DNA of 64,000 nucleotides from NCBI GenBank assembly GCA_041650755.1, contig JBAZKN010000005.1:580-64579 (forward strand). Direction: 5' to 3'. This document shows positions 18,302-31,771 of this stretch, one piece after another. This DNA is from Patescibacteria group bacterium. Its GTDB lineage: Bacteria > Patescibacteriota > Patescibacteriia > UBA1558 > GWA2-36-10. Made by a program: the position numbers and the translations under genes. The first letter of the stretch is position 1; every line of letters begins with the position of its first letter. The notes under the pieces were generated by a model that did no database searches, was not told the DNA's origin, and saw nothing but the letters and a program-made list of their open reading frames with translations.

Positions 18302-18709
18302 ATGATTATGAATAAGAAAATTAATCTGATTTTAACAATTTTAATTGGTTTAGGACTTCTGCTTTTTGGTCTATCGCCCATGACTCCTTATACACCTTAC
18401 GTTCTGCTAGTATTATTGATTATTTTATTTACTTCTACCTTTAAGTTTCGTGAAAAGAAAATAATCAGTTCACTTTTCTATATCATGTTGGTGTTATCTG
18501 TATTATATATGATAATACCATTTAAGATCATAAATATAAACAATGCAGAAGATGTTAAATTATTTTTTGTAGGAGATGAAAAGGTTAAAATTTTACCTAT
18601 CGTAAATGCAGATTTGGAATATCTAGATAAGCGTCCACTGGAAGTTTACCCGGTTGGTGATGTTATTATTAGAATAGCCCCTCATTACGTAGTGCTTATA
18701 AGGAACTAA
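18302..18709 (+). CDS. Membrane protein, candidate immunity for orphan cassette 1
   Basis: 3 TM helices. Lies immediately downstream of the toxin tip. Confidence 0.4.
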   Translation: MIMNKKINLILTILIGLGLLLFGLSPMTPYTPYVLLVLLIILFTSTFKFREKKIISSLFYIMLVLSVLYMIIPFKIININNAEDVKLFFVGDEKVKILPIVNADLEYLDKRPLEVYPVGDVIIRIAPHYVVLIRN

Positions 18710-18716
18710 TAAATAC

Positions 18717-18745
18717 AAAAAACCGCCTTTCTGGCGGTTTTTTGA
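18717..18745 (+). terminator. Rho-independent terminator
   Basis: aaaaccgcc-tttct-ggcggtttttt. Confidence 0.6.
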
Positions 18746-18749
18746 TGTA

Positions 18750-19075
18750 GGTAAGCTGTTGGTAACTAGAGCCTTCGCAAGACCTCAAAAGTGAGCTAAG
18801 CTAAAGGTGGACTTTTAGTTCTTTTTTAGCTAAAATATAGTTAACAATTAAATAACATTGGCTTAACAGCCAAGCGCCTAAACTTAAGGATTTTCCTTGG
18901 GCATGGTGCAAAAACCTATAACAGTAAATGGCTCGTCGTCAGAGCACTGTTATAGGTCATGCCTCGAAAGGGGTATGGGTCTCCGTAAGGGGATCGCTGG
19001 CGGCGGGCTTTTTGCATCTCCGGCAGCCCTCTCACTTAGGTCGAAAGTGAGTCTAGGAATTAATTATTAATCAAA
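18750..19075. ncRNA. Candidate structured RNA or island-border element (unassigned)
   Basis: GC-rich. Nested perfect stems (ggcatgg...cctataacagt / actgttatagg...tcatgcc), GNRA-like 'cgaaagg' and 'tcgaaagtga' loops, no ORF. Confidence 0.25.
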
Positions 19076-19083
19076 ATAATTTT

Positions 19084-19578
19084 ATGGAAACAGGAAAAAA
19101 GAAAATGGGTTTTTTCAAAAAGATGTTAATTGGTGCGGGCGTTACACTTGTTGTTATCATCGTTATCGCTGCTTCAAGTGACAATGATAATGAAAATACT
19201 AATCAATCCAATCAGCAAGCAGCGACTACTAACCAACAACAAGGTCAGCAACCAGAACAATCTATAATAAAAGTTACCGCTGTTAAACTCAGTGAGGAAT
19301 ATGATACTAATAGCGTGGCCGCTGACGCAAAGTATAAGAATGAAATGGTAGAAGTCTCTGGTGTTATTGATAATATAGGTAAGGATATTATTGATACGCC
19401 GTATGTTACTTTATATGGCCCATCTAGTAGTTTATTTGGTATTCAGTGTATGTTTAATAAAGAAGACGAAGTTCAATTAGCGGCCTTATCAAAAGAACAA
19501 AACATTGTTCTTAGGGGTAAAGTGGAAGGAGAAATTATTGGCAATGTCATTGTTAGAGGTTGTAGCATAGTTAAATAG
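19084..19578 (+). CDS. Membrane-anchored hypothetical protein with a Q/N-rich linker and a small beta-rich domain
   Basis: N-terminal TM 'GAGVTLVVIIVIAAS', then a low-complexity NQ-rich stretch. Possibly an OB-fold-like domain. Confidence 0.3.
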   Translation: METGKKKMGFFKKMLIGAGVTLVVIIVIAASSDNDNENTNQSNQQAATTNQQQGQQPEQSIIKVTAVKLSEEYDTNSVAADAKYKNEMVEVSGVIDNIGKDIIDTPYVTLYGPSSSLFGIQCMFNKEDEVQLAALSKEQNIVLRGKVEGEIIGNVIVRGCSIVK

Positions 19579-19587
19579 CCACACTAA

Positions 19588-21033
19588 TTATCCCAACATA
19601 GTCAACCTTGGCATACTAAACTGATGCTCCAGTATCTTCATAATCAGCATAGAAAAAGCATCGGCTAGGTCATCGTGTTTTTCGACCCCAAAGTTAGTTA
19701 TTTCCTGTATAAGTTCTTCGGCTCCGTGACGAGGGAAAACTACATAACCTCGTTTAACAGAATTTGAAGCTATGGCTAATCGTGATCTCTTGTCTAAGCG
19801 TCCGAAATTAACTCCTTCTACTTGCATACAGTAATCATCTTGTAATTGGTGGATAAAAGCCCGTTGGTACCCAACGTCTTCTACATAAACATCAGGATAA
19901 TCTCCTTTACGTATACTATTAGCTAAACTTTTAACTGCTTGAATAGCGTCTGGGAAAGTCAGACGTTGGTTAATGGGATGGGGCAGAATATAGATTAGGG
20001 GACGTTCGTCAACAATATAAACTAAAGCCGCGACCATAGCTGTATAATCAGCTGTGGTCTTTTCAGAAATAGCTAAGTCAATACCAATAGCTGGGAAGAA
20101 AAAATGTTCTCGACTTTTAGGGATCTCATCATAGTAGCATAGCCACTCTGGATGAATCACTCTTTCCGAGTTAGAGATAATACGCAGTAAATACTCCCTA
20201 TACCAGGCTGTATCATTTCCCACTCGCTTTTTAAGATTTCCAATACTTTCGTTATCTGGATATTTCCCAGGCCAAGCACACTGGTTGTTGTCATCTAACA
20301 GAGGATAGGAACGATATATGCCTTTGAGATTATTATCTTTAATACCCTGTTGTAATCGCATTAACACTGAATCTTCGTGTAAAAGATTGCCCACTACAAT
20401 AATGCGAGTGTTTAAGTCTCCGGCTGGAATAACATCTCCTACCAGCCATTGATGAGTCTTGTCCCGACTTTCTTTGGTCTTTACAGATTCCAAATCTTCC
20501 ACATCATCGCAAATAATTAAATCTGGTCTATATTGCCCATGTCTTAAACCCCTAATACTTTGTTCAGTAGAAGCGGCTATGATCCTAGCGTCATATTTAG
20601 GGATAACTAGAGCATAAGAACCCCATTCATCAGCTTGCTCTTCAAAAGGTCCTAAGTCAGCTCTAAGTAGTTTATTTTGCTCTAATTCTCGTTTAAGGTT
20701 CATTAAGTGCTGCCTAGCCTGTCTTTGGGTCTGACTAAGCATAACCACAAACTTCTTTTTCTGTTGTCCTAGTATTGCCCAAATTGGGTATGACATATTC
20801 ATAATCGTGGATTTTCCGGATCCACGGAAGGCCACTATAACAGCCATAGGAATACTTTCGTCTTCGGTTATAGAAAATAATTCTTTATGAAATCTGGCCG
20901 TCTCGTGAGTCACATACTTGGCAAAGTAGAGATGGAAAAATAGTAAATGACTTTGTCTAGTGATGGCTGTCCGGACTTTCCGGTCTTGGTAGACTTGCCT
21001 CAGTAGTTGAGGCGTTAACATTGTTGGGTTCAT
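19588..21033 (-). CDS. Phage terminase large subunit-like ATPase/nuclease
   Basis: Walker A 'AFRGSGKST'. Walker B-like 'LIICDDVED'. Acidic residues in the C-terminal nuclease-like half. Size and order fit terS-terL. Confidence 0.55.
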   Translation of the reverse strand: MNPTMLTPQLLRQVYQDRKVRTAITRQSHLLFFHLYFAKYVTHETARFHKELFSITEDESIPMAVIVAFRGSGKSTIMNMSYPIWAILGQQKKKFVVMLSQTQRQARQHLMNLKRELEQNKLLRADLGPFEEQADEWGSYALVIPKYDARIIAASTEQSIRGLRHGQYRPDLIICDDVEDLESVKTKESRDKTHQWLVGDVIPAGDLNTRIIVVGNLLHEDSVLMRLQQGIKDNNLKGIYRSYPLLDDNNQCAWPGKYPDNESIGNLKKRVGNDTAWYREYLLRIISNSERVIHPEWLCYYDEIPKSREHFFFPAIGIDLAISEKTTADYTAMVAALVYIVDERPLIYILPHPINQRLTFPDAIQAVKSLANSIRKGDYPDVYVEDVGYQRAFIHQLQDDYCMQVEGVNFGRLDKRSRLAIASNSVKRGYVVFPRHGAEELIQEITNFGVEKHDDLADAFSMLIMKILEHQFSMPRLTMLG

Positions 21034-21439
21034 ATATTTGTTGTTCTTTCTCGTCAGAGTCAGCGTGCAAGGCGGCTAGTTTTAAGGCCTCGGTCACGAC
21101 TGCTTGTTGCTCTGGCGTTAATACCTGGTTAGATTCTTCAAGTTTGGCGGTTACTTGGAGTTTAGTGGTGTATTGCGGATGGTGATGTTTGAGCCACATA
21201 ATAATGGCTGTCAGATTACGATCTTTAATAGCGGTAATTAATTGGGACTCCGCCATGTCGTTTATGAGCAGTGATCCTTGTAGTATGGCCTGATCAGCTT
21301 CTTTGGCAAAAGATTCGTTGTCTTTACGCAGACGATAATAGGTCGCTCTACTGATGCCAGACTTTTCACACGCTATTTGCACTATAGGAGTTTTCTTGAG
21401 CTGTTCAATCAACTCATTTTTTTGTTGCTTACTTATCAT
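20957..21439 (-). CDS. HTH DNA-binding protein (possible terminase small subunit)
   Basis: 'IACEKSGISRATYYRLRK' helix-turn-helix. Overlaps the terL start. Confidence 0.4.
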   Translation of the reverse strand: MISKQQKNELIEQLKKTPIVQIACEKSGISRATYYRLRKDNESFAKEADQAILQGSLLINDMAESQLITAIKDRNLTAIIMWLKHHHPQYTTKLQVTAKLEESNQVLTPEQQAVVTEALKLAALHADSDEKEQQIYEPNNVNASTTEASLPRPESPDSHH

Positions 21440-22766
21440 GACCGTGTAATTTAATAGTTTTTTTACCAGTTAGTTTTTTCCAACGCTTTTTGATCACTTC
21501 TGTATAGACGGGGGATTTTTCCATGATATAGCATCTGCGCTTCATTTTGGTGGCCGCTATTAACGTTGAACCAGAGCCACCAAATGGCTCGACAATGAGG
21601 TCATCGCGCTTGGTAAGGACTTTGATATATGGAATAAGAATTTCTACTGGTTTGGTGCCGAAAATCACTCCTTGACCAGAGCTTTTCTCGTCCGAGGCCT
21701 TATAGTCAATAAAGTCAGTTGGGGCGTACTTCTTGCCTTTTTGATAGCCTTCCCAATGGGGTTTACCGGCTATGGCGTATAAGGCGGTTTCGTATTCATT
21801 TTGAAGTGGCGTTTCTTCTGTGGATAGATTTAGTTCTAAACTGTCTTTACTACTGCCCACCATAGCTATATCGTGTTTTGAGAAAAATTTATACTTAGCC
21901 GCAAAGCCCTGGGTTCTATTGGGTAGTCGCCAAACTATCATATTTTTAACCTTCCAATACTTTTCCATTTCTGCCCAAATAGTTCTAAGATTTTTCCAAT
22001 TCTCATAGACTATGATATGAAAATCATCTTTGGCTATTTTGGCAATATTTTTCATCCACAATTCAGTAAAATTATCAGGCAAACTATCTGTACCCAAATA
22101 CCGTCTATCTCGCTTATAGCCGAAGCCCTCGCTAGACTTATGTTTCTTTTTACCTTTTAAATAATTTAATATATAAGGTGGATCGGTTAGACACATGTCA
22201 GCACTAACACCATTCATTAATTTTAGCATGTCGGCCTCAATAGTGGAGTCACCACACATCAGGCGACTGCCATCTAACTCATAAACATCACCTTTTTTAG
22301 TTTGAATGTTTTTAATATCTAATTTAGCCAGTTCTTTTTGGAGGTCAAATTTTTCTGGTTCTATATCTATATCAAAGATATCATCCAGTTCTTCGCTGCT
22401 GAAACCAAGATTTACTAGGAACGACTCGTCAAATTCAGCTAGTAGCTTAAAGTCAAATTCACCAGTGTTTTTATTGAGCCTTAGATTAAGCTCTTTTTCT
22501 TTTTCTAGATTAGGAATATTGACATAGACTACTGGCACTGTCTTATATCCCAAATCTTTAGCTATTTTGAGTCTAAAATGACCGCCAATGACCACATTCT
22601 CCCGACCTTTGGCTGAATTGCAGATAATAGGGTCTACTAGTCCATATCTGTTAATGCTGTCTGTTAAGTCCTGGATAGCCTTTTGACTCCACTTCCTAGG
22701 GTTGTAGGAAGCGGGACTTAATACCTTAGGATCAAGGTATTGGATTTTGAGGTTGTTTTTGTCCAT
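21429..22766 (-). CDS. ParB-like nuclease domain fused to an N6-adenine/N4-cytosine DNA methyltransferase
   Basis: N-terminal ParB-N 'VVIGGHFRLKIAKDLGY'. Methyltransferase motif IV 'CLTDPPYILNY'. Motif I 'VEPFGGSGST'. Confidence 0.7.
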   Translation of the reverse strand: MDKNNLKIQYLDPKVLSPASYNPRKWSQKAIQDLTDSINRYGLVDPIICNSAKGRENVVIGGHFRLKIAKDLGYKTVPVVYVNIPNLEKEKELNLRLNKNTGEFDFKLLAEFDESFLVNLGFSSEELDDIFDIDIEPEKFDLQKELAKLDIKNIQTKKGDVYELDGSRLMCGDSTIEADMLKLMNGVSADMCLTDPPYILNYLKGKKKHKSSEGFGYKRDRRYLGTDSLPDNFTELWMKNIAKIAKDDFHIIVYENWKNLRTIWAEMEKYWKVKNMIVWRLPNRTQGFAAKYKFFSKHDIAMVGSSKDSLELNLSTEETPLQNEYETALYAIAGKPHWEGYQKGKKYAPTDFIDYKASDEKSSGQGVIFGTKPVEILIPYIKVLTKRDDLIVEPFGGSGSTLIAATKMKRRCYIMEKSPVYTEVIKKRWKKLTGKKTIKLHGHDK

Positions 22767-22793
22767 GGTTTTATTGGTTAATAATTAATCTTA

Positions 22794-23153
22794 TTATCGT
22801 TTTTTATCTAGAATTCCGGCTAGCTTAAGGAACATTTCAACGGCCTTTGGATTACCTTTAGTTGAGGCATTGCTATATAGCCCTCCGATGGCATCGGGAA
22901 CGCGATCTTTTACCCAAACACTTATTTCGCTTTGCACAAGTGGCCAGAATTGCACGTCTTTCGTCCAATCAGTTAAGGTGTCCTCACAGACTCCGATTTG
23001 TTTTGCAAATTCCTTTTGTGTTTCGGGATTACGAAACTTATAAGGCGTAGCAAACCATTTGGCAAATAGTATAAATTCAGATACCCGCTGAACCCCGGGC
23101 ACGACTTTTATAGAATCGGAGTCAATCGGAGCGAGGGTTTTGTTTTTAGTCAT
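22794..23153 (-). CDS. Small HTH-containing phage-like protein
   Basis: 'TQKEFAKQIGVCEDTLTDW'. Confidence 0.3.
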   Translation of the reverse strand: MTKNKTLAPIDSDSIKVVPGVQRVSEFILFAKWFATPYKFRNPETQKEFAKQIGVCEDTLTDWTKDVQFWPLVQSEISVWVKDRVPDAIGGLYSNASTKGNPKAVEMFLKLAGILDKKR

Positions 23154-23252
23154 AGCTTAGTAATTAGTTAAATGAAAAAAGAGCCATTATTATCATAGCT
23201 CTTTTTCAAATAGTCCATTCCGAGTTCCGCTCGAGTTCCGTTTTGTAATGTT

Positions 23253-24392
23253 TTAGCTTATCTTAGCAATTTTTCTTTTGCTTCTTTTTAAGTCATTTCG
23301 ATGGGCCTTTACACATGCGATTGATCCACATGTTATTTGCCATTTGTTGCGGGGCTTAAAATTACTCTTACAAATAGGGCATGTTTTATTAATAAATCCA
23401 GTTAAAACTTGCTTTACAGTTTCTTCTTTTTCAGTCAGAAAATATAAGAAAGCATTAATAATATAAATCATGTAATGCGTGTCCTCAAGACTAGCAATAT
23501 CATTGTCGTTTAGAGATTTAATATATGCTGTTTTAATTTTATTACTGCGAGCAGATTCGTTAATCAAGCTTTTTTTCGAAATAAATTCTCGCCAGTCATA
23601 TATAAATTCTTTGGTTAGTTTATACTTATCTAAGATTTTTTTTGCCCGTTCTTTAAAAATAGGGGATATATCAAAATCGTACTCCTGTCCCCATTCTATT
23701 TTTGAAGGTTTATGTCCATATGCCTCTCGGTATTGTGTATATTTTTCTCTTTTTTTCTTTTCAAATAATTTATGTATTTTTTCCATCTCATGGTATATCT
23801 CTAGAAATTTATATAAGTCAGCTATCCTTTTCTGGATGGACGCTATTATTTTTTTTCTATCAATATCATTTTTGTGTTCTTTAATCCATATCAAATATGG
23901 TAGAGCAATTTTTATGGCAAGTATTTGCTTTTTATCGTATAAAAATTCATATTGTTTTTTTATGGCACTAGCACTGGTGTAAAAATCAGAAAACTGTCTT
24001 TGCTTCCAGGCAAAAGATTTCTGTTGCGACGGCCACTCTACCATATTGTTATCAAAATAATAATCGAGCCAATGATCATTAAGTTTTCCGAGACTACCGA
24101 TGCAATAGTAATTTTTTCTGTCCAATTTTATAATTTTAAATTTGTCTAAATCCTTAGGGTGGATATAACGCCATTCATTTAGTCCGTTAAAAGAAGCATA
24201 TACTCTTTTAAACTCCACAACCCCTAAATATACTTTTAAGGCGGGGAAGACTAATTTATGCTTATGTAGCTCCTCTAGGGTATTTTTATCAATCTTAAGC
24301 CCGTTATCTTGGCAGTAGCCAACGAAAAAAGACATATGGATTAAACCCCCCTGATTGAGCGGCATTTGGGTTTTAAACTCTGTAGCTTCCAT
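23253..24392 (-). CDS. Hypothetical protein with a C-terminal Cys4 zinc-ribbon
   Basis: 'CPICKSNF...CGSIACVKAH'. No other motifs recognised. Confidence 0.3.
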   Translation of the reverse strand: MEATEFKTQMPLNQGGLIHMSFFVGYCQDNGLKIDKNTLEELHKHKLVFPALKVYLGVVEFKRVYASFNGLNEWRYIHPKDLDKFKIIKLDRKNYYCIGSLGKLNDHWLDYYFDNNMVEWPSQQKSFAWKQRQFSDFYTSASAIKKQYEFLYDKKQILAIKIALPYLIWIKEHKNDIDRKKIIASIQKRIADLYKFLEIYHEMEKIHKLFEKKKREKYTQYREAYGHKPSKIEWGQEYDFDISPIFKERAKKILDKYKLTKEFIYDWREFISKKSLINESARSNKIKTAYIKSLNDNDIASLEDTHYMIYIINAFLYFLTEKEETVKQVLTGFINKTCPICKSNFKPRNKWQITCGSIACVKAHRNDLKRSKRKIAKIS

Positions 24393-24458
24393 TTATTTAA
24401 CGTTTTTCTTAGTATTTTTTATTTTATTCGCAAATCCCTAATTTACGGGGTAGAGTAT

Positions 24459-24487
24459 TTGACAATCTTTGTATATTTGTATATAAT
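24459..24487 (+). promoter_or_regulatory. Consensus sigma70-like promoter upstream of the lexA-like gene
   Basis: TTGACA (24459-24464), 17 nt spacer, TATAAT (24482-24487). ATG lies at 24496. Confidence 0.5.
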
Positions 24488-24495
24488 ACTAGTGT

Positions 24496-25167
24496 ATGAA
24501 ATATACCAAAAAACCAACAAAAGGGCAACTGGAAGTACTGGATTTTATTCAGAAATATATAGAAAAGCACAATATTCCACCACTTATTGAGGACATAAAA
24601 TCAGCTTTTCAGTTTAAATCAACACGCTCTGTCACCCAATATCTAGATGCTTTAACCAGACAAGGGTACATAGAAAGGAATCGTAAACAAAAAAGAGGCA
24701 TACAGTTAGTTAATCATTATCAAGAACCAGGGCTAGACACTGTTTTAGTTCCTTTGCGTGGCACAGTTTCCTGTGGTCAGCCTAGTTTCTACGCTGATGA
24801 CAACATAGAGAATTTTTATTCAGTTGATAGCAGGTTATTGACCAGTAAAGTGAATAATTATTTTTTGGTGAGATCTTGCGGAAACTCCATGAACAGAGCG
24901 GGTATAGAAGATAATGATTTGGTGTTGGTAGAAAAAACTGATTATTTTGCAAACGGAGATAGGGTTGTAGCAGTTATTGATGGTCTGGCTACTATAAAGA
25001 ATTTTTCCAAGGGAGATTCTTCAATAGTGTTATACCCAGCTTCTTCTGATGATAAGCATAAGCCTTTAATAGTTAAAGACGATTTTAATCTGGTAGGTAG
25101 GGTAGTCGATATATTGCCAGATCCGGAATCTTTTAATGATATCAGGTATGAACCTGTAAACCAATAA
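24496..25167 (+). CDS. lexA: LexA-family repressor (winged-helix N-terminus + S24 peptidase C-terminus), either host LexA or a prophage CI-like repressor
   Basis: N-terminus 'QLEVLDFIQKYIEKHNIPPLIEDIKSAFQFKSTRSVTQYLDALTRQGYIER'. Catalytic Ser in 'CGNSM'. Lys in 'VVAVIDGLATIKNF'. Confidence 0.75.
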   Translation: MKYTKKPTKGQLEVLDFIQKYIEKHNIPPLIEDIKSAFQFKSTRSVTQYLDALTRQGYIERNRKQKRGIQLVNHYQEPGLDTVLVPLRGTVSCGQPSFYADDNIENFYSVDSRLLTSKVNNYFLVRSCGNSMNRAGIEDNDLVLVEKTDYFANGDRVVAVIDGLATIKNFSKGDSSIVLYPASSDDKHKPLIVKDDFNLVGRVVDILPDPESFNDIRYEPVNQ

Positions 25168-25181
25168 TTAATCAAGCAAGC

Positions 25182-25424
25182 ATGGCAAATTATCACGTAA
25201 CAAAAAACAAAGATATTGGCAAATGGCAGGCTAAGAAAGAAAAGGCCGATAGAGTCGCCGGCTTTTATGACACACAAGCGGAAGCCGAGGCAGCAGCGAA
25301 ACAATTTTCAGCTAATAGCGGCGGTGGTGAGGTAAGGATCCACAGCCCGAAAGGTCCAATTAGGGATAGTGATACAGTTCCACCAGGAAATGATCCTAAT
25401 CCGCCTAAAGACAGGAGATTTTAA
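25182..25424 (+). CDS. DUF2188 family protein
   Basis: 'YHVTKNKDIGKWQAKKEK...GFYDTQAEAEAAAKQ...GEVRIHSPKGPIRDSDTVPPGNDPNPPKD' matches the DUF2188 consensus pattern. Confidence 0.6.
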   Translation: MANYHVTKNKDIGKWQAKKEKADRVAGFYDTQAEAEAAAKQFSANSGGGEVRIHSPKGPIRDSDTVPPGNDPNPPKDRRF

Positions 25425-25428
25425 TCGT

Positions 25429-25857
25429 ATGGAAAAAAAATTAAAACATTTAGAATTCATACAAAACGTTATTAGCAGGATGGCTAATAACCTTTTTCTG
25501 TTGAAAGGATGGGTAGTTACTTTGGTAGCAGCACTTTTGGCTTTATTGGCATCAAATAATGCTGGTACCCAATTTATCTTTATAGCTCTAGTTCCAATTA
25601 TAATTTTCTGGCTTCTAGACGGCTATTTCTTGTCTCAAGAAAGAATGTATAGGGATCTATACAAGGATGTTGCCAAGAAGCAAGAGGATCAAATTGATTT
25701 CTCAATGGATGCTAGTAAATATAATACAGGTAGAAACAGATGGCTTAACTGCTTCTTTTCTAAAACACTGGTAATATTTTATGGTCTGCTTCTGCTATTA
25801 TTTTTAATAATTATTTACTACAATTTTGATATAAAAATTTCAATAAGTATAGGATAA
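25429..25857 (+). CDS. Small 2-3 TM membrane protein, candidate pore-forming/SLATT-like effector
   Basis: Amphipathic N-helix then TM1 'WVVTLVAALLALLAS', TM2 'FIFIALVPIIIFWLL', and a C-terminal hydrophobic helix. Start taken at ATG 25429, immediately after the DUF2188 stop. Confidence 0.35.
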   Translation: MEKKLKHLEFIQNVISRMANNLFLLKGWVVTLVAALLALLASNNAGTQFIFIALVPIIIFWLLDGYFLSQERMYRDLYKDVAKKQEDQIDFSMDASKYNTGRNRWLNCFFSKTLVIFYGLLLLLFLIIIYYNFDIKISISIG

Positions 25858-25861
25858 ACAT

Positions 25862-26422
25862 ATGTCAAGAAAAGTTTTTTACAGTTTTCATTATGAGCGG
25901 GACGCTTGGCGTGCTGGTCAGGTGCGAAACTTCAATTTACTCGCTGATGAGGATGAATATGGAATTATCGATTCAGTCGAGTGGGAAAAAATTAAGAAAA
26001 AAGGTGATGAGGCCGTAAAAAGTTGGATAAAAGATCAGCTTAAAAATACCTCTGTCACAGTTGTGTTGATTGGTGCAGAAACATCGGAAAGGCCATGGGT
26101 CAAATACGAAATTGAACAAAGCATAGAAAAAGGCAATGCTTTGTTGGGCGTTAGAATACACTCGGTTAAAACCCAGAAAAAAGAGACTGATTCTCCAGGA
26201 AAAAATCCTTTAGATTTGATTTCTCTAAAAAATGGTAAGCCTGCATCATCATTATACAAAACTCATGACTGGGTATCTGATGATGGTAGAAAGAATTTAG
26301 GTCAATGGGTTGAGGATGCATATAAAATTAGTGAATCTAAAACTAATTTAGGTACCCACGACACTAGCCCTACGCCAACCCCACGTAGCTTTACGCCTAA
26401 ATCACCCTGGTCTGTTTTATGA
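25862..26422 (+). CDS. TIR-like domain protein (DUF1863 / Thoeris ThsB-like)
   Basis: 'KVFYSFHYERDAWRAGQVRN' and 'NTSVTVVLIGAETSERPWVKYEIEQSIEKGNALLGVRIH ... GKNPLDLI' closely mirror the ThsB/DUF1863 TIR consensus, as far as it can be recalled. Confidence 0.6.
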   Translation: MSRKVFYSFHYERDAWRAGQVRNFNLLADEDEYGIIDSVEWEKIKKKGDEAVKSWIKDQLKNTSVTVVLIGAETSERPWVKYEIEQSIEKGNALLGVRIHSVKTQKKETDSPGKNPLDLISLKNGKPASSLYKTHDWVSDDGRKNLGQWVEDAYKISESKTNLGTHDTSPTPTPRSFTPKSPWSVL

Positions 26423-27105
26423 TATCAGATCAGGATAAGGATTGGTTAAGTAAATATTATCCTGGTTTGATAGTAAGCGGGAAAGAAATTTCTGGCGATA
26501 TTGAATTTGTAGCTAACTATAATAAAGACACTGACCAGTTTTCAATTTTGTATAATGGTACACCAGACTCCATTGATGGTTTAAAGTTAAGTGGTAAGTT
26601 TTCCGTTATTATTTCTGAGAGAACTAACAAAGCTTCTTCAGATCTTCCGGCACTGATTGTTAAAAATATAGATACAACTACGGATCGTCATTTTAATCAA
26701 ATGGACAAATCAGCTTGCCTTTGTAGTCCTTTAGAGGAGGGAGAGTATCTATTGCCAGAATTTAGTTTCAAGCTTTTTTTGGAAGAGCTGGTCATTCCAT
26801 TCTTGTATGGTCAAGTTTTTTATGATAAAAATGGTAAGTGGCCGTGGTCTGAATACTCACATGGTGCCGTTGGCATACTGGAATCATATTTAGATATATC
26901 CGATGCAAGTAAAGCCAGGGCTTCTATTGAAAAATTACGTTATGATACAAATTGGCCACGAGTTGAACAGGTATTAAAGCAAAAATCTTATATTAAAGGG
27001 CATACCCCTTGTTTTTGTCCAAAGGCTGATCAGATCAGGCGTTGCCATCCAAAGGCTTGGCAGGGTATTAATAAACTAAAGAATGATATAAAAGATTCAT
27101 ACTAG
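26419..27105 (+). CDS. Hypothetical protein, translationally coupled to the TIR gene (ATGA overlap)
   Basis: No recognisable motif. Cys/His pairs 'CLCSP' and 'CFCP...CHP'. Confidence 0.35.
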   Translation: MISDQDKDWLSKYYPGLIVSGKEISGDIEFVANYNKDTDQFSILYNGTPDSIDGLKLSGKFSVIISERTNKASSDLPALIVKNIDTTTDRHFNQMDKSACLCSPLEEGEYLLPEFSFKLFLEELVIPFLYGQVFYDKNGKWPWSEYSHGAVGILESYLDISDASKARASIEKLRYDTNWPRVEQVLKQKSYIKGHTPCFCPKADQIRRCHPKAWQGINKLKNDIKDSY

Positions 27106-27107
27106 AT

Positions 27108-27311
27108 ATGGGTAGGTATAGGGGAAAAAGTAGTTTTCATCGTAACTTAGGACATGATCTATATACAATAATATATTGTTCATTATTTTTTCTTTGTATA
27201 AAAATTTGGGGGGCAAATGTTATTTTAAGCAGCTGGCTTGTTTTGCTATGGCCTATAAGTTATTTCTTAGTAGGCTTTATATTAAGAAAAATAGGAGTTT
27301 GGAAGTATTAA
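27108..27311 (+). CDS. Small 2-TM membrane protein
   Basis: 67 aa with two hydrophobic helices. Confidence 0.3.
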   Translation: MGRYRGKSSFHRNLGHDLYTIIYCSLFFLCIKIWGANVILSSWLVLLWPISYFLVGFILRKIGVWKY

Positions 27312-27327
27312 TATATGCTCACAGAAT

Positions 27328-28293
27328 ATGTCATTAATATTGGGTATAAATCTTACAGATAGAATAATTTTAGCAACTGATAGTAAAGTTACTAAATCAG
27401 TTAATGGTAAACGAGAGGTAGTTGGCTATTGTACAAAATTAGTTCAGTATAATGATCGGGTTTTAAATGAAGATAAGGTTGTAAAAAATAGAAAGGATTT
27501 AGGTAACTTTATTTCCTGTATGTATGCTGGAAACAAAGATTTTTCTTTTTTTATACATCAAAAATTATCGGTTGCTTTTGAAAAGGGCGTATTATCTACA
27601 GACATCAATGTTTTACAGACACAAATTGATGATTTTTTTAAAAAAATTACTCCTGAATATGATGGAGTAAAAAAATGTCTTATGATATTTGCAGGCGTAT
27701 CATTGAGTGGTTCCATAAAGATATTTAGTTTTAAGCGTCTATCAGATTTAATAGGTCCCCAAGCTGGCCACGTAGAAGATCCTAATATAGTAGGGGCATT
27801 ACAATTTGCATCACAAGATTCAGATACTACTCCATTGATGAATAGAGAAAACAATTATTTTGTGCCGGATCAGAAATTATTTTCTTTTGAGATAGACGAA
27901 GATAGACATAAATTTGGCATAGGAAAAATTGGTGGTACTTATTCAGTTGTAGCTGGCGGGTCAACCACCATTGATGAGAATCTGGAAAACAAGATTCTAA
28001 AATATTTTTTAACCAAAAGGGATATTAAAGCCGAGGCTTCGGATATTATAAACTTTATTAGAAGTAATTTTTCCGATAGTATTGGTGGTGCAGTAGTATT
28101 AGGGTATATTGATACAAGGGGTATTCTGACCAATGTGAGTTATCAAGTTGATAGATCAGGAGAAATTAATGATAAAAACTGGTCCATAGAAATTAATGGT
28201 AAAGATTTTATAGCTTTAGATCCGGAAAGCAAAAGAATTGATTTATTAGAATATTTTTTTAATGGTTCAGGCGATAGCGATTGTTTGTTATAG
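27328..28293 (+). CDS. HslV/proteasome-beta-like Ntn-hydrolase-fold protein with a C-terminal extension
   Basis: The N-terminus 'MSLILGINLTDRIILATDSKVT...KLVQYNDRV...YAGNKDFSFF' parallels HslV '[21 protein letters not shown]...RRLYNDKV...FAGGTADAFTLF'. Residue 2 is Ser rather than Thr. Confidence 0.4.
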   Translation: MSLILGINLTDRIILATDSKVTKSVNGKREVVGYCTKLVQYNDRVLNEDKVVKNRKDLGNFISCMYAGNKDFSFFIHQKLSVAFEKGVLSTDINVLQTQIDDFFKKITPEYDGVKKCLMIFAGVSLSGSIKIFSFKRLSDLIGPQAGHVEDPNIVGALQFASQDSDTTPLMNRENNYFVPDQKLFSFEIDEDRHKFGIGKIGGTYSVVAGGSTTIDENLENKILKYFLTKRDIKAEASDIINFIRSNFSDSIGGAVVLGYIDTRGILTNVSYQVDRSGEINDKNWSIEINGKDFIALDPESKRIDLLEYFFNGSGDSDCLL

Positions 28294-29943
28294 GATTTTA
28301 TCCTCAATAAGAAAATCAATCTTGCTAACCTTACTCGGCTGATTTGGATCATTATAAGCTTTAAGTTTTATAGGAAGTGACCCATATAGGGTTATTTTTT
28401 TGTTTAGAAAAACTATCTTATCTATATAGTCCAGTAAAAACTCTCTTTTAGTATTAAAGTTGGTAGCTTGCTCAAATCTTGTTTTAGCTACTTCATAGAA
28501 TTGTTTGACGCTTGTTTCTATTACTTGCTTCTTGTGTAGTCTAGGCATTTTATTTATAAGCTGATTTTTTTGTGTTTTTAGATTATCTATTTCTTTTTCA
28601 CACAGGGAGCAATTTTTGGAATATAAGGTTCTAGTAATTTTGCTCTTGGCGTAATCATCTAGATATTGTTTTTTATCTTTGGTAATTTTTAATATACTAT
28701 TTTCAATATCGCTGATTTCATTTTCTACTTTTTCATGAGTTAAGCCATTTTTAGTTTTCATGTAGTCAGTACAAAGTAGTAATCTGTCAGGATCAAGTAG
28801 CGTGTCTTTAATCATTTTAAAAACACATTTTTCTATTTTTGGTGCTGATACCTCGGGATTTTTACACAAGTATTTATCCATTTTCTTAGAGTGCATCCTG
28901 TTTTTTACCTTTAGCCCACAGTGATAGGCAACTTTGTAAGTTATTTTAGAAGATCCATCTACTAGTTTATATTTATAATATCTCTGATAGGGTATATAGT
29001 TTCTACCGCAATTACCACATCGTATTAATCCAGATAGTAATTGTTCTTCTGATTTTTTCTTATAGACCTTTTTATTTTTGTCCAGTCTCTTTTGGACTTT
29101 ATCAAATAAGCCTTTGGAAATAATAGCTGGAACTTTGACGGCAATCCACTCTGATTTGTCTTTTTCTATTCTTTTGCCATATTTAATTTTATAAATAGAC
29201 TTCTCAGGTTTTTTCTCATATTTAGTTTTATTAAAATATTTTATGCCATAGTAGGTGGTATTGGTCAGTATGTGCCTTAATTTTTCGGTATCCCATAATT
29301 TTAAACCTAAATGAGTTTTAATACCTTTTTCTTCTAAATATACAATTAGTTGTTTCCAGCTTATTCCCTTAGCATATTGCTCATATATGTATTTAACTAT
29401 TTTAGCTTCATCCTTGTTGATTATCATTTTAGCCGGAGTTTTGTTTGTGCGTTTGATATAAGTATAGCCAAACATATTAGCACCACTGTTTAATACCTGA
29501 CCTTGTTTTAGTTTATGGATTTTACCTCTTAGGCTTCTTTCAATTATTTTGGCACGCTCCAGTTCAGAAACCGCACCCAGAACCGTTAAAGCAAATTTGT
29601 TCTCTGGATTATGGACATAATCCTTGCCGTTTATAATAATCTGCTTTTTGTATTTTAGAATCTCAGCAATGATAATTGTCTGGTAAGTTACTTCTCTGGC
29701 AATTCGGTCAGTATTTAAAAAATAAATCGTATCAAATAAATCGCTTTTTAAGTCATCTCTTAACTTATTCATTCCTGGTCTATCCAACTGTGCACCAGAG
29801 TATCCGTCGTCAATATACTCTTTGATTAAAACGTCATTATTTTCTTTTATTTGTTTTTTAAGCTCAGCGATTTGGCTCTCTATGGTTCTTTCTTTTTCCT
29901 GCAGAGCCGAACTAACTCGGGCGTATAGTACTGCTTTTTTCAT
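28288..29943 (-). CDS. Large serine recombinase (resolvase/invertase N-domain + recombinase + zinc-ribbon)
   Basis: 'KKAVLYARVSSALQ' catalytic Ser. Cys-rich zinc ribbon 'CGNCGRNY...YHCG'. C-terminal coiled-coil. Confidence 0.8.
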   Translation of the reverse strand: MKKAVLYARVSSALQEKERTIESQIAELKKQIKENNDVLIKEYIDDGYSGAQLDRPGMNKLRDDLKSDLFDTIYFLNTDRIAREVTYQTIIIAEILKYKKQIIINGKDYVHNPENKFALTVLGAVSELERAKIIERSLRGKIHKLKQGQVLNSGANMFGYTYIKRTNKTPAKMIINKDEAKIVKYIYEQYAKGISWKQLIVYLEEKGIKTHLGLKLWDTEKLRHILTNTTYYGIKYFNKTKYEKKPEKSIYKIKYGKRIEKDKSEWIAVKVPAIISKGLFDKVQKRLDKNKKVYKKKSEEQLLSGLIRCGNCGRNYIPYQRYYKYKLVDGSSKITYKVAYHCGLKVKNRMHSKKMDKYLCKNPEVSAPKIEKCVFKMIKDTLLDPDRLLLCTDYMKTKNGLTHEKVENEISDIENSILKITKDKKQYLDDYAKSKITRTLYSKNCSLCEKEIDNLKTQKNQLINKMPRLHKKQVIETSVKQFYEVAKTRFEQATNFNTKREFLLDYIDKIVFLNKKITLYGSLPIKLKAYNDPNQPSKVSKIDFLIEDKIL

Positions 29944-31621
29944 AGCTTAGTTTATTATATTCTTTATTAGTTATTTGCTTATTATCTAATAATCCATCTT
30001 TTTTATCTTGTCGTTGTAGTTTCTTAAGGGCTTGTAGTCTATTTATCTTATTGGTTATTACAAAAGCTAGTTTAGTATTTTTAATAGTCACAAAGCCGTA
30101 TAGTTTTATTTCATCAACACCTTTGTTATGGATATATTCTATTTTAGAGACGTATCTTTGTAAGAAATCTTTTGTTTTTAATTTAGAAAAATCAGCTTTA
30201 GCATGGTTGGAATAACTCAGCACACTATTTCCTATTTCTTGAGGATTATTAAAAACTGGCATCGATTGTGCCAGTTCTTTGTTTGTTTTTTCCAGTGATT
30301 GTATGTTTTTGTCATAACCATTAACTTTTTCTACATAGGTTTCTCTTTCCAGATCTCCTAAGGAGTATAGATCAACAATTCTTTGCTTTTGTTTTTGGAT
30401 AGATTTTATCTGGGTTTTGATTTGTTTGATTTCTTTTTCAACTTTAGCTTGGTTAACAGCATTGCTTTTGGAAAAATAATCCATACAGTTTTTTAGTTTA
30501 TCGGGATCAAAGACATATTTTTCAATCATCTTGAATATTTGCGGTTCTAATATTTTACTGTTAATTTCCCGGTTGTGGGCTTTATATAAACTACCGCCGC
30601 ATTTATATATTGTTCTTTGATAAATTTTTGTTTCTTTTTTCCTATATACTTTATAACACCTATGATAAGCAAAACATCTTTTATGACATACGCCGCAAAA
30701 AACTATATTGGATAAGGGCTGAGTGTTTTTAGCGTTGCGGTAGCACTCCAAATTATATTTAATTTTACTCTGCACTTTATCAAATAAATCTTTATCAATA
30801 ATTTGCGGAATCTTGATGCCAATCCAAGTTGACCTGTCTGTTGGCACTCGTCGTATAGTTTTACTTCTACCCTCAAGCCGATTTAAAGCATTGGTGTCAG
30901 TTGTAGTATTAAAATATCTTATACCAGTGTATGTTTCGTTATCTAACATTATTCTTATATGATACCAAGTCCATTTTCTACCTCGACGAGGTGGAATATT
31001 TTTTTCTTTTATCTTTTTAACTATTTCTCTGAAACTTATATTACCCTGGGCATAAAGTTTAAAAATATAGTTAACAACCTTAGCTTCTTTAGGATTGATT
31101 TCATATGAAGGAAAGGACTTATCACTTTTGGGAATATAATTGTAGCCATAAATGTTGCATCCGTGTGATAGTAGTTGCCCTTGCTTTAATCTATATTGCC
31201 TGCCTCGCATACTACGTTCTAGTATTTTAGTTTTTTCCAGCTCGGCTACAGCCCCAAGCACCGTTAAAGTAAACTTGTTCTCGGGGTTATGAATATAGTC
31301 CTCGCCGTTAATAATAATCTGTTTCTTATGCCGCAGAATTTCCCCGATGATGATATTTTGGTAAGTGACATCTCGGGCGATTCTGTCAGCGTTATGGAAA
31401 TAGATGCTATCAAATTTATTAGTTTTAATATCTTCCCGTAATTTATCCATCCCAGGTCTACTGAGCATAGCTCCGCTGTAGCCGTCATCTACATATTCTT
31501 TTACTAGAATATTGCCGACTTTTTTGATCTGCTTTTTGAGCTCGTCTACCTGACTTTCTATAGTTCTTTCCTTTTCTTGCAGGCTTGAGCTTACCCTAGC
31601 GTATAATACTGCTTTTTTCAT
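29912..31621 (-). CDS. Large serine recombinase (second tandem copy)
   Basis: 'KKAVLYARVSSSLQ' and 'CGVCHKRCFAYHRC...YKCG'. About 45% identity to its neighbour. Confidence 0.8.
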   Translation of the reverse strand: MKKAVLYARVSSSLQEKERTIESQVDELKKQIKKVGNILVKEYVDDGYSGAMLSRPGMDKLREDIKTNKFDSIYFHNADRIARDVTYQNIIIGEILRHKKQIIINGEDYIHNPENKFTLTVLGAVAELEKTKILERSMRGRQYRLKQGQLLSHGCNIYGYNYIPKSDKSFPSYEINPKEAKVVNYIFKLYAQGNISFREIVKKIKEKNIPPRRGRKWTWYHIRIMLDNETYTGIRYFNTTTDTNALNRLEGRSKTIRRVPTDRSTWIGIKIPQIIDKDLFDKVQSKIKYNLECYRNAKNTQPLSNIVFCGVCHKRCFAYHRCYKVYRKKETKIYQRTIYKCGGSLYKAHNREINSKILEPQIFKMIEKYVFDPDKLKNCMDYFSKSNAVNQAKVEKEIKQIKTQIKSIQKQKQRIVDLYSLGDLERETYVEKVNGYDKNIQSLEKTNKELAQSMPVFNNPQEIGNSVLSYSNHAKADFSKLKTKDFLQRYVSKIEYIHNKGVDEIKLYGFVTIKNTKLAFVITNKINRLQALKKLQRQDKKDGLLDNKQITNKEYNKLSYEKSSTIRPS

Positions 31622-31771
31622 AGTTTTTTGCTATACTTAGCTTATTACGAGGGGATGATACCGCAGGGGTGGATAAAGTCCAACTTATAATTGGTAAAGC
31701 CATATTAGACAATGAACGTCCAAGTCAGTCAAGTTTTGGAAAAACCGTAGTTCTTTTACAAATCTAAGAAA

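What the first reader, a model, noticed from the sequence alone, without database searches (positions are those of the whole stretch)
18750..31771. About 13 kb phage- or satellite-like island with tandem large serine recombinases, inserted inside the RHS orphan-cassette array
Between orphan cassette 1 (ends 18709) and cassette 2 (starts 31772) lie several phage-like genes. These are terL-like and HTH genes on the minus strand, a ParB-N6/N4 methyltransferase fusion, the lexA-like repressor and the TIR operon. Two adjacent large serine recombinases (28288-31621, about 45% identical) follow. No capsid, portal or tail genes are present, so this looks like a degraded prophage or a PICI/satellite-like element that carries defence cargo. 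The candidate att regions are at 18750-19080 and 31622-31771.
Basis: partly seen in the sequence, partly recalled or inferred. Interest (0 to 1): 0.6.

Follow-up and report, generated by a model that had tools for sequence, protein, structure and literature searches.

The report
Toxin-tip-carrying mobile island in RHS array
This is a real mobile element of an undescribed family in tiny "candidate phyla" bacteria: it has two paired recombinases, a phage DNA-packaging motor but no virus shell genes, defence cargo, and apparently its own RHS toxin tip and immunity gene, which it splices into the host's RHS toxin gene array.

Summary
These are a phage-type TerL, two TerS-like HTH proteins, a ParB–MTase fusion, a LexA-like repressor, a TIR/E2 cargo operon and two tandem large serine recombinases (LSRs) that are 44% identical. 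No capsid, portal or tail gene is present. It is not a decayed prophage. The same shell-less backbone recurs in other Patescibacteria contigs with different cargo, and close TerL homologues in 21 further loci are followed by LSRs or defence genes, never by structural genes.

The boundaries need revising. The right end is a conserved element arm at 31822-31846. This arm abuts the RHS codons F-T-G in three loci and an idi look-alike site in a fourth. The left end is not at 18750. A 25/27-nt direct repeat (17526 and 31847) starts exactly at the FTG codons, so the insert is about 14.3 kb (17526-31846). It includes the toxin tip of "cassette 1", its immunity gene and a conserved terminator.

Best model: a CcrAB-like LSR pair integrates a satellite-like element at the RHS core/tip boundary. 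This installs a new toxin tip and orphans the old one. Packaging by a helper phage is inferred, not shown.

The parts
17268..17525 (+). Host 5' conserved part of the disrupted orphan RHS cassette (B side of attL). The ORF starts at 17340.
   Evidence: RHS homology families D2/D9. Upstream of 17526, c1 reads ..NDYK as other cassettes do, whereas c2 has the element arm.
17526..17552 (+). Left copy of the 27-nt direct repeat (TTCACTGGACGGGAGTATGACGAAGAG), starting at the FTG codons. Proposed attL core / P' half-site.
   Evidence: 25/27 identical to 31847-31873. The 45 nt upstream are 9/45 identical and the next 78 nt are 48/78 identical. D3 spacing is 14,321 bp.
17526..18296 (+). RHS toxin tip carried by the element (C-terminal 257 codons of the 'cassette 1' ORF).
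   Evidence: Inferred from the repeat position, and from the fact that in W, L176, L015 and L175 the element's terminator end abuts an immunity-gene stop codon with no RHS 5' part at either junction.
18302..18709 (+). Immunity gene paired with tip 1 (135 aa, membrane protein). Proposed element cargo.
   Evidence: Position is between the tip and the element's terminator.
18716..18744 (.). Bidirectional rho-independent terminator (CAAAAAACCGCC-N5-GGCGGTTTTTTG) belonging to the element.
   Evidence: Terminator scan. The identical stems occur at the same place in L176, next to an unrelated immunity gene.
18749..18800 (+). Conserved motif upstream of LOOT (AGCTGTTGGTAACT..CTTCGCAA..TAAGCTA). A regulatory region, not an att site.
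   Evidence: Found 70-100 nt upstream of LOOT in L093, L015, L176, L035, L037 and L039.
18875..18995 (+). LOOT RNA (Rfam RF03000).
   Evidence: 89.4 bits against a gathering score of 46.4, full length. Found in ten related element loci.
19084..19578 (+). Membrane-anchored OB-fold protein (tRNA_anti-like), resembling superinfection-exclusion proteins.
   Evidence: PF12869 E=2.7e-24. phrog_8545 Sie-like E=8.5e-18.
19588..21033 (-). Terminase large subunit (TerL).
   Evidence: phrog_38 E=1.7e-75. Catalytic motifs are invariant. More than 3,000 homologues at E<=1e-40, many at about 53% identity, on CPR contigs.
20957..21439 (-). TerS-like HTH protein.
   Evidence: PHROG TerS families and HTH_Tnp_1_2. 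Conserved directly upstream of TerL in all relatives.
21429..22766 (-). ParB-N / N6-N4 DNA methyltransferase fusion.
   Evidence: PF02195 + PF01555. phrog_498 E=3e-81. Conserved in the module.
22794..23153 (-). Second small HTH (TerS-like) protein.
   Evidence: Weak HTH_Tnp_1_2 and phrog_7344 hits.
23253..24392 (-). 379-aa backbone protein with a C-terminal zinc ribbon. Function unknown.
   Evidence: No family hits. Only 8 homologues, all Patescibacteria or metagenomic. AF2 model has pLDDT 79.7 and no PDB fold match at E<=0.001, so no capsid or portal fold.
24459..24487 (+). Perfect sigma-70 consensus promoter in front of the repressor/cargo operon.
   Evidence: TTGACA-17-TATAAT, 12/12.
24496..25167 (+). 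LexA-like S24 repressor, divergent from the packaging operon.
   Evidence: PF01726 + PF00717. 82% identical orthologue at the same position in L176.
25182..25424 (+). DUF2188 protein (PADLOC PDC-S16). Backbone partner of the repressor.
   Evidence: 78% identical orthologue in L176.
25369..28293 (+). Variable cargo slot: TM protein (PDC-M50A), ThsB-like TIR (PDC-M50B), E2-like protein, 67-aa ORF and 321-aa ORF.
   Evidence: PADLOC hits. The same slot holds other genes in L176 and a GajB-like UvrD helicase in L093.
28288..29943 (-). Large serine recombinase LSR2.
   Evidence: Resolvase + Recombinase + Zn_ribbon_recom. LSR2-type orthologues always pair with LSR1-type ones.
29912..31621 (-). Large serine recombinase LSR1. 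It overlaps the LSR2 start by 32 nt.
   Evidence: Resolvase + Recombinase. 447 homologues at E<=1e-30, mostly Patescibacteria.
31770..31819 (.). Three copies of AATGAGACA (one forward copy, then two tandem inverted copies). Candidate protein-binding site near the element end.
   Evidence: Conserved in L015, L017, L024, L029, L035-39 and L174.
31822..31846 (+). Element end arm (P arm), TGGAGCGAGTGTCGTGCAAGCAACC.
   Evidence: Conserved with 0-2 mismatches in L013, L174 and L014 although the flanks differ (RHS, RHS, idi).
31847..31873 (+). Right copy of the 27-nt direct repeat (attR core / B' half-site).
31847..32650 (+). Displaced host toxin tip 2. The annotated ORF 31772-32650 is a chimera whose first 25 codons are element DNA.
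   Evidence: PT-TG domain.

Best explanation
The island is an integrated copy of a conserved family of Patescibacteria mobile elements that have no virion genes.

**Backbone.** It consists of a co-translated pair of large serine recombinases (LSR1 and LSR2), a LexA-like repressor with DUF2188, and a divergent operon of a Zn-ribbon protein, an HTH protein, a ParB-methyltransferase, TerS and TerL. It also has a LOOT RNA in front of a surface or exclusion protein gene, and a variable cargo slot downstream of LSR2. Here that slot holds a TIR/E2 defence-like operon.

**Integration.** The circular form most likely also carries a promoterless RHS toxin tip plus immunity gene, placed next to its attachment site. 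The LSR pair recombines that site with the conserved F-T-G codons at the RHS core/tip boundary. The chromosomal RHS 5' part becomes fused in frame to the incoming tip (17526-18296, with immunity gene 18302-18709). The old tip (31847-32650) is pushed behind the element as an orphan. The insert is therefore 17526-31846 (about 14.3 kb), flanked by a 27-nt direct repeat.

**Regulation and transfer.** The repressor probably keeps the packaging operon off. On induction the element would excise, and its own terminase would package it into capsids supplied by a helper phage.

**Status of each step.** Shown: gene content, family conservation, the junction sequences and the repeat. Inferred: LSR catalysis, tip delivery, induction and helper-dependent packaging.
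For: 1. **Family conservation.** L013/L176 has the same order (LSR1-LSR2-cargo-DUF2188-LexA-Zn-ribbon protein-ParB-MTase-TerS-TerL-secreted genes-LOOT-terminator). Backbone proteins are 51-82% identical and the cargo is different. L014/L093 and L175 are variants of it.
2. **No structural genes.** None is found here. None is found among 44 ORFs downstream of TerL in 21 related loci. These are instead integrases (12), reverse transcriptases, methyltransferases, nucleases and exclusion proteins. L026 and L030 carry type III restriction-modification, a reverse transcriptase and PIF1/DUF2779 there.
3. **Right junction.** The arm TTGCTTGCACGACACyyGCTCCA abuts RHS codons (A)T|FTG in the window, L013 and L174. 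In L014 it abuts idi codons ..LLLQQR. The idi flank matches the RHS flank at 15/20 positions, which is the pattern of a recombinase pseudo-site.
4. **Left junction.** The terminator is conserved between the window and L176. In the window, L176, L015 and L175 the element's terminator sits 3-10 nt after the stop codon of unrelated immunity genes. No RHS 5' fragment lies at either junction.
5. **Direct repeat.** It is 25/27 identical, starting exactly at FTG. The flanking identity is 9/45 upstream and 48/78 downstream, the lowest downstream value of any cassette pair.
6. **RHS adjacency.** L015 shows a full-length RHS (2312 aa) with tip and immunity genes ending at the element's terminator, and a 5'-truncated orphan at the P-arm end. 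RHS adjacency is seen in 9 of 10 related tandem-LSR or LSR loci examined.
7. **Conserved LSR pairing.** In all 8 same-contig pairs, one member is LSR1-type and the other LSR2-type.
Against: - No empty site, circular junction or read-level evidence could be obtained. All four assemblies of this population carry the island in the same context.
- The 20-nt end overlap of the L013 contig fits either a circle or flanking repeats.
- In L015 the repeat flanking the element is weak, about 60%.
- The P arm and the host B arm show no similarity, and no clear dyad symmetry was visible by eye. This is unusual for LSR sites, and homologous recombination within the shared 27 nt cannot be excluded for the RHS cases.
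- No replication module or directionality factor was identified.
- No helper phage is known.
- The closest relatives of the tandem LSRs are absent from IMG/VR, so there is no evidence of encapsidation.
Confidence: 0.6

Rival explanations
1. It is a degraded prophage remnant. A temperate phage integrated by its serine integrase lost its head, tail and lysis genes by deletion, leaving the packaging, regulation and integration genes plus morons.
For: TerL, TerS, ParB-MTase, the LexA-like repressor and the LSRs are typical prophage genes. No activity evidence exists. In L174 the LSR1 orthologue is truncated to 374 aa.
Against: The same shell-less gene set and order recurs in independent elements with 50-80% protein identity and different cargo. 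Close TerL homologues in 21 loci are never followed by portal or capsid genes. TerL catalytic residues are intact and the family is large and conserved. Independent decay would not converge on one architecture of about 13-15 kb.
Confidence: 0.08
2. It is a simple site-specific insertion of a 13.1-kb element (about 18716-31846) between the immunity gene of cassette 1 and a 5'-truncated cassette 2. Tip 1 and its immunity gene are host DNA, and the 27-nt repeat reflects ordinary RHS conservation.
For: Homology with L176 and L093 on the left side is only demonstrable up to the terminator. The FTG region is generally conserved among RHS genes, for example c1 against L174 at 22/27.
Against: This model needs a pre-existing orphan that starts exactly at FTG immediately after an immunity stop codon, in four independent loci (W, L176, L015, L175). 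Otherwise it needs precise deletion of the orphan's 5' part each time. Other orphans in this array keep 60-230 codons of 5' homology. The c1-c2 pair is the least similar pair beyond the 27 nt but nearly identical within it.
Confidence: 0.15
3. It is a domesticated RHS tip-switching system. The LSR pair mainly serves the host by recombining FTG sites of different cassettes, shufflon-like, to change which toxin tip is expressed. The phage-like genes are a hitch-hiking or ancestral remnant.
For: The LSRs are tightly and repeatedly linked to RHS arrays, including a second clade that uses another conserved RHS position. Because the P' and B' sides are nearly identical, attR resembles attP and could in principle react again with other FTG sites. 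The same locus is occupied in a distant relative, L174.
Against: The element arm is also found in a non-RHS gene, idi, in L014. The conserved terminase module and the variable defence cargo argue for horizontal mobility. No inverted or alternatively joined cassette variants were seen in the four assemblies.
Confidence: 0.12
4. It is an integrative element that moves without phage capsids. The TerL/TerS/ParB-MTase module works as a DNA-processing or anti-restriction module, not for encapsidation.
For: No helper phage is known and there is no virion evidence. Close relatives of the tandem LSRs are absent from IMG/VR. TerL is at most 27% identical to the TerL of any sequenced phage.
Against: TerL keeps both the ATPase and nuclease motifs and is always preceded by a TerS-like gene. 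No conjugation or relaxase genes are present.
Confidence: 0.15

Closest known systems
SCC elements (SCCmec) with the CcrA/CcrB recombinase pair
   Same: Both have two adjacent, co-transcribed large serine recombinase paralogues that are conserved as a pair. Both insert site-specifically into the 3' part of a conserved ORF, so that the ORF is re-completed by element DNA. Both have direct repeats at the two junctions, variable cargo, and build-up of arrays at one locus. The best NCBIfam hits of both LSRs are CcrB, CcrC and XisF.
   Different: Scores are far below the Ccr cut-offs (about 105 against 900 bits). The target is the RHS core/tip boundary, not rlmH. The element also carries a terminase module, a LexA-like repressor and a LOOT RNA. 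The host is Patescibacteria.
Phage satellites (PICI, cfPICI, PLE, PICMI)
   Same: The size is about 13-15 kb. There is an integrase at one end (PLE also uses an LSR), a master repressor divergent from an operon that includes packaging genes, no complete virion module, and defence or accessory cargo.
   Different: It encodes a complete TerS+TerL holoenzyme but no capsid genes. PICIs have TerS only, and cfPICIs have TerL together with capsid genes. No primase or replication module was detected. It has a tandem LSR pair. Helper dependence is unproven.
RHS C-terminal displacement and orphan cassette arrays (described for Enterobacteria; recalled from the literature)
   Same: A new tip plus immunity gene joins the conserved core end, and the old tip remains downstream as an orphan. 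Cassettes 3 and 4 in this window look like classical products with long 5' homology.
   Different: Here the incoming tip appears to arrive on a site-specific integrative element, with the junction at one fixed codion position (FTG) and element DNA left between the new and old tips. Classical displacement is attributed to homologous recombination without a dedicated vehicle.
Recombinase-associated toxin/immunity arrays (XerC/D next to polyimmunity loci, PMC3482391; rAID-1 islands, recalled from memory)
   Same: A site-specific recombinase is physically linked to arrays of polymorphic-toxin or immunity cassettes.
   Different: Those use tyrosine recombinases and accumulate immunity genes. They have no terminase, no LSR pair and no in-frame tip replacement.
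Temperate phages with serine integrases (phiC31, Bxb1, A118 type)
   Same: An LSR gene lies next to the attachment site. There is a repressor and a terminase.
   Different: Those have a single LSR and a full structural and lysis module of about 40-50 kb. Their att sites have no long shared core.

Membership tests
Large serine recombinases | N-terminal resolvase catalytic domain with the nucleophile serine | tested here: met
   PF00239 E about 1e-25 in both. The motif YARVSS is at residues 7-12.
Large serine recombinases | Recombinase domain plus zinc-ribbon domain C-terminal to the catalytic domain | tested here: met
   PF07508 in both. PF13408 passes in LSR2. In LSR1 the Pfam hit is missing, but the Cys residues are invariant among orthologues.
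SCC-type (CcrAB) elements | Two adjacent LSR paralogues conserved as a pair | tested here: met
   The genes overlap. All 8 of 8 same-contig pairs are LSR1-type plus LSR2-type.
SCC-type (CcrAB) elements | Orthology to CcrA/CcrB/CcrC | tested here: not met
   NCBIfam CcrB/CcrC scores are 89-109 bits against a cut-off of 900.
SCC-type (CcrAB) elements | Integration into the 3' end of rlmH (orfX) | tested here: not met
   The target is the RHS FTG codons, or idi in L014.
Tailed prophage | Portal, major capsid, tail and lysis genes | tested here: not met
   No hits in Pfam, PHROGs or NCBIfam. The only unknown backbone protein has no capsid or portal fold.
PICI-type phage satellite | Integrase, master repressor, replication (pri-rep/ori) module, packaging-redirection gene, size about 10-15 kb, no full virion module | tested here: inconclusive
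   The integrase (serine type), repressor, TerS/TerL and size are met. No primase or replication gene was found.
PICI-type phage satellite | Helper-phage-induced excision and packaging | not testable with these tools
   Needs experiments or virome read data.
cfPICI | Own capsid, portal and head-tail connector genes | tested here: not met
   None detected.
Phage terminase large subunit | ATPase Walker A/B motifs plus an RNaseH-like nuclease domain | tested here: met
   phrog_38 E=1.7e-75, and Terminase_6C at 22.5 bits against a cut-off of 22.6. The residues G71-T76, D176/D177/E179, D319 and D454/D455/D458 are invariant.
LOOT RNA (RF03000) | Covariance-model score above the gathering threshold over the full model | tested here: met
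   89.4 bits against 46.4, model positions 1-121.
Thoeris defence system | ThsB (TIR) together with a ThsA effector | tested here: not met
   ThsB-like hit E=8e-64, but no ThsA among the neighbours. The pair matches the candidate system PDC-M50 instead.
RHS orphan cassette | Conserved core-end segment (FTGxExD..LQYxGARY..DP) followed by a variable tip and an immunity gene | tested here: met
   Five such sites lie in the window, at 15919, 17526, 31847, 33870 and 35838.

The most novel reading that the evidence does not exclude
A capsid-less, terminase-encoding satellite-like element of CPR bacteria is a dedicated vehicle for RHS toxin diversification. It uses a CcrAB-like pair of serine recombinases to splice its own toxin tip and immunity gene in frame into chromosomal rhs genes at the FTG codons. 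The previous tip is orphaned. Because attR stays attP-like, the element may also be able to pick up and shuffle resident tips. Transfer between cells would go through hijacked phage capsids.
Probability: 0.4. Interest if true: 0.88.

Novelty: new variant of a known kind. Interest (0 to 1): 0.78.

Why it matters
- **RHS toxin diversification.** How new RHS toxin tips enter genomes has been attributed to homologous recombination with unknown donor DNA. A site-specific element that carries tip and immunity genes would give a concrete, testable mechanism.
- **A CPR mobile-element family.** Candidate Phyla Radiation bacteria have few characterised mobile elements. This family is abundant there: TerL has more than 3,000 close homologues.
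- **Genome-engineering leads.** It offers paired serine recombinases with a defined target sequence of about 50 bp.
- **LOOT RNA.** It gives the orphan LOOT RNA its first consistent genetic context.
- **Defence cargo.** It marks a cargo slot that collects defence genes.

Tried and rejected
- **Empty site or alternative contexts.** Exact-protein look-ups of four window proteins returned only assemblies with the island in place.
- **Logan contig breaks.** Breaks at 31792-31815 and the 20-nt end overlap of the L013 contig were considered as evidence of excision or circularity. This was rejected as undecidable, because both fit short repeats shared with other copies in a k=31 graph.
- **The motif AGTTACCAACAGCT at the left end.** It was first taken for the P' arm of attP, because in L015, L021, L037 and L100 it lies just upstream of the LSR. 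This was rejected: it always lies 70-100 nt upstream of LOOT wherever LOOT is, including mid-element in L093.
- **Left boundary at about 18745.** This was rejected once the terminator proved conserved in L176 and the 27-nt repeat at 17526 was found.
- **JGI metagenome scan with an LSR1 alignment.** It gave only about 10 useful short loci.
- **IMG/VR scan with the same alignment.** It gave no close relatives.
- **Terminal repeats.** None were found on whole IMG/VR contigs of close relatives.
- **Literature searches.** Searches for RHS plus serine recombinase and for Patescibacteria plus terminase found nothing relevant.

Full report
**Source.** The window is part of a 249,924-bp Patescibacteria (CPR) metagenome contig, ena:ERZ27247363:k141_2241731. 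NCBI names its proteins as 'Patescibacteria group bacterium'.

**Checking the observation.**
- OB-fold/tRNA_anti-like membrane protein, 19084-19578 (PF12869; Sie-like phrog_8545).
- TerL, 19588-21033(-) (phrog_38, E=1.7e-75). The Walker A/B and nuclease aspartates are invariant among homologues.
- TerS-like HTH protein, 20957-21439(-).
- ParB-N/N6-N4 methyltransferase fusion, 21429-22766(-).
- Second small HTH protein, 22794-23153(-).
- 379-aa protein without family, 23253-24392(-).
- LexA-like S24 repressor, 24496-25167(+), behind a perfect sigma-70 consensus promoter.
- DUF2188.
- A cargo operon: TM protein and ThsB-like TIR that match the PADLOC candidate system PDC-M50, an E2-like protein, and ORFs of 67 and 321 aa.
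- Two large serine recombinases, 28288-29943(-) and 29912-31621(-). They are 44% identical and overlap by 32 nt.

No ORF matches a portal, capsid, tail or lysis family. The one unknown backbone protein gave a usable AlphaFold model (pLDDT 79.7) that matches no solved fold.

**Not a decayed prophage but a family.** LSR1 has 447 homologues at E<=1e-30, mostly from CPR bacteria. Eight contigs each carry two of them, and in every pair one is LSR1-type and the other LSR2-type. The pairing is therefore conserved, as with CcrA/CcrB.

The contexts fetched show the same backbone:
- L013/L176 (Logan SRR22387790, 15,340 bp) has LSR1-LSR2-[other cargo]-DUF2188-LexA-Zn-ribbon protein-ParB-MTase-TerS-TerL-[DUF4352, SNase]-LOOT-terminator. 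Backbone identity is 51-82%.
- L014/L093 has the LSR pair, a GajB-like UvrD helicase and other cargo, LOOT, two methyltransferases, TerS and TerL.
- L175 and L015 are module-permuted variants.

The TerL family is very large: more than 3,000 proteins at E<=1e-40, many about 53% identical, on CPR contigs up to 1.2 Mb. It is at most 27% identical to the TerL of any GenBank phage.

In 19 IMG/VR loci with close TerL homologues, the module ParB-MTase(-MTase)-TerS-TerL is usually followed by a serine recombinase, either directly or after 4-9 kb of cargo. In L026 and L030 that cargo is type III restriction-modification, a reverse transcriptase and PIF1+DUF2779. A PHROG scan covered 44 ORFs downstream of TerL in 21 loci. 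It found integrases (12), reverse transcriptases, methyltransferases, nucleases and exclusion proteins, and no structural protein. Independent decay cannot produce this uniform architecture of about 13-15 kb.

**Right junction.** I aligned the regions upstream of LSR1 in the window, L013, L174 and L014. All share a conserved arm, TTGCTTGCACGACACyyGCTCCA in LSR orientation, which is window 31822-31844 on the minus strand. Next to it lies an AATGAGACA repeat cluster.
- In the window, L013 and L174, the arm abuts RHS coding sequence at exactly the same codons: ..GA(S/G)VVQA|TFTG(Q/K/R)E.
- L174 comes from a distant relative with the same PGK-enolase-iPGM neighbourhood (host proteins 57-66% identical).
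- In L014 the arm abuts an IPP isomerase (idi) gene after ..LLLQQR. The idi flank matches the RHS flank at 15 of 20 positions.

A conserved element end joined to different host genes that resemble each other only over about 20 nt is the signature of site-specific recombination into a preferred site and a pseudo-site. It follows that the first 25 codons of the annotated 'cassette 2' ORF (31772-31846) are element DNA.

**Left junction.** I first took that motif for an att arm, but it follows LOOT wherever LOOT sits in ten related loci.

Homology with L176 continues leftward through the bidirectional terminator at 18716-18744. Its stems are identical in L176 although the adjacent immunity genes are unrelated. 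In the window, L176, L015 and L175, the element's terminator lies 3-10 nt after the stop codon of an immunity gene. In none of these loci is any RHS 5' fragment present at either junction. A plain insertion into an orphan cassette should leave that cassette's 5' part at the left junction.

The resolution comes from comparing the five FTG sites of the window. Cassette 1 (17526) and cassette 2 (31847) share 25 of 27 nt starting exactly at the first base of the FTG codons. They are unrelated upstream (9/45). Downstream they are the least similar of all cassette pairs (48/78). The repeat spacing is 14,321 bp (family D3).

The inserted DNA is therefore best defined as 17526-31846. It includes the toxin tip of 'cassette 1', its immunity gene (18302-18709) and the terminator. 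The ancestral orphan was the 5' part of cassette 1 joined to tip 2.

L015 shows the same logic with a full-length RHS. The 2312-aa protein's tip and immunity genes end at the element's terminator, and a 5'-truncated orphan sits at the arm end, although the flanking repeat there is weak. The L013 contig, whose ends overlap by 20 nt inside the RHS conserved segment, fits either the circular form (arm-FTG-tip-immunity-terminator-body) or an integrated copy between similar cassettes.

**RHS association.** Of ten related LSR loci inspected, nine lie next to RHS genes: the window, L013, L174, L015, L175, L100, L098, L102 and L103. The tenth is the idi case. The L098/L102/L103 clade joins RHS about 125 codons further upstream, so it is a second RHS-targeting specificity. 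More distant single-LSR relatives sit next to tRNA genes.

**Mechanism.**
- *Shown:* the gene content, the family conservation, the junction sequences, the direct repeat and the conserved LSR pairing.
- *Inferred:* the LSR pair recombines an attachment site made of the element arm plus the FTG region of the element's own tip with the FTG region of a chromosomal RHS gene. This fuses the host core to the incoming tip and orphans the old tip. I saw no obvious symmetry in the sites. If they are asymmetric, that may explain why two different recombinase paralogues are kept.
- *Inferred:* the LexA-like repressor, co-transcribed with the cargo from a consensus promoter and divergent from the packaging operon, suggests a lysogeny-type switch.
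- *Inferred:* the intact TerS/TerL, with no capsid genes, suggests packaging into a helper phage's capsids.
- *Missing:* no replication module, directionality factor or helper was identified.

**Comparison with known systems.** The closest analogue for integration is SCCmec with CcrA/CcrB. Both have paired LSRs, insert into the 3' part of a conserved ORF, have direct repeats and build arrays. The recombinases are not Ccr orthologues, however (about 105 against 900 bits). For lifestyle, the closest analogues are phage satellites (PICI, PLE), but this element has a full terminase, a serine recombinase pair and no recognised replication module. For the outcome, it resembles classical RHS C-terminal displacement, here with a dedicated vehicle. 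Literature searches found no description of such elements. The nearest precedent found was the note that XerC/D recombinases flank polyimmunity loci (PMC3482391).

**Limits.** There is no empty site, no circular junction, no read data and no experiment. Homologous recombination within the shared 27 nt cannot be excluded for the RHS cases. The tip-delivery step rests on junction architecture in four loci and one clean direct repeat.

**Verdict.** The finding is more interesting than proposed: a new variant of satellite-like or SCC-like integrative elements that appears to deliver RHS toxin tips.

Noticed in passing
window 18875-18995; L015 9748-9862; L027 6190-6308; L093 10276-10393; L100 9735-9852; L176 13147-13266; L037 2426-2543; L175 6916-7042; L039 4850-4979; L035 2646-2785: LOOT RNA (RF03000) is recorded by Rfam only as an sRNA. 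It occurs in eleven TerL/LSR element loci (the window plus ten relatives). It usually lies directly 5' of, and on the same strand as, a gene for a membrane, secreted or exclusion-type protein (OB/Sie-like, Ltp, SNase). A conserved motif (TAGCTTA..TTGCGAAG..AGTTACCAACAGCT) lies 70-100 nt upstream.
   Followed up: partly
window 25369-28293: The cargo operon combines a PDC-M50-like pair (TM protein and ThsB-like TIR) with an E2-like protein (PADLOC E2, 9e-30), a 67-aa ORF and a 321-aa ORF. By eye, the N-terminus of the 321-aa ORF resembles an Ntn/proteasome-beta hydrolase. This may be a TIR plus ubiquitin-like conjugation defence system. No ThsA is present. The single-sequence structure model was unusable.
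   Followed up: partly
window 35156-35188 and 37457-37489: A perfect 33-nt direct repeat flanks orphan cassette 4, its immunity gene and a DUF7674 gene. It may be a scar of another insertion or duplication.
   Followed up: no
window 15421-16014 versus 35337-35933; 33114-33727: The 3' core region of the main RHS gene is 83-88% identical to the long 5' parts of orphan cassettes 3 and 4. These are classical displacement products, in contrast with the sharp FTG junction of the element.
   Followed up: partly
L010 3035-6318; L016 1620-4813; L018 594-3752; L019 3809-6938; L031 3668-6812: GC-rich relatives carry two tandem TerL-like ORFs, each about 51-53% identical to the window TerL.
   Followed up: no
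L098 178-1392, L102 3-896, L103 548-1828: A second LSR clade (soil metagenomes) lies next to RHS orphans whose junction is about 125 codons upstream of FTG, at ..VVTTTYLYD... This is an independent RHS-targeting specificity.
   Followed up: partly
L026 3236-3324 and 18860-18931; L029 20244-20331; L021 6502-6556; L030 3744-3892: Single-LSR relatives of the element have tRNA genes at their ends. The wider family probably also uses tRNA genes as integration sites. L026 looks like a 15.5-kb element bounded by two tRNA genes.
   Followed up: no
window 24459-24487: A perfect sigma-70 consensus promoter (TTGACA-17-TATAAT) drives the LexA-like repressor and the cargo operon. That is unusually strong for a repressor gene.
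   Followed up: no
L174 7307-8390: In the syntenic locus of the related Parcubacteria genome, an IS3-family transposase lies between the RHS orphan and the PGK operon. The LSR1 orthologue there is truncated to 374 aa at the contig end.
   Followed up: no
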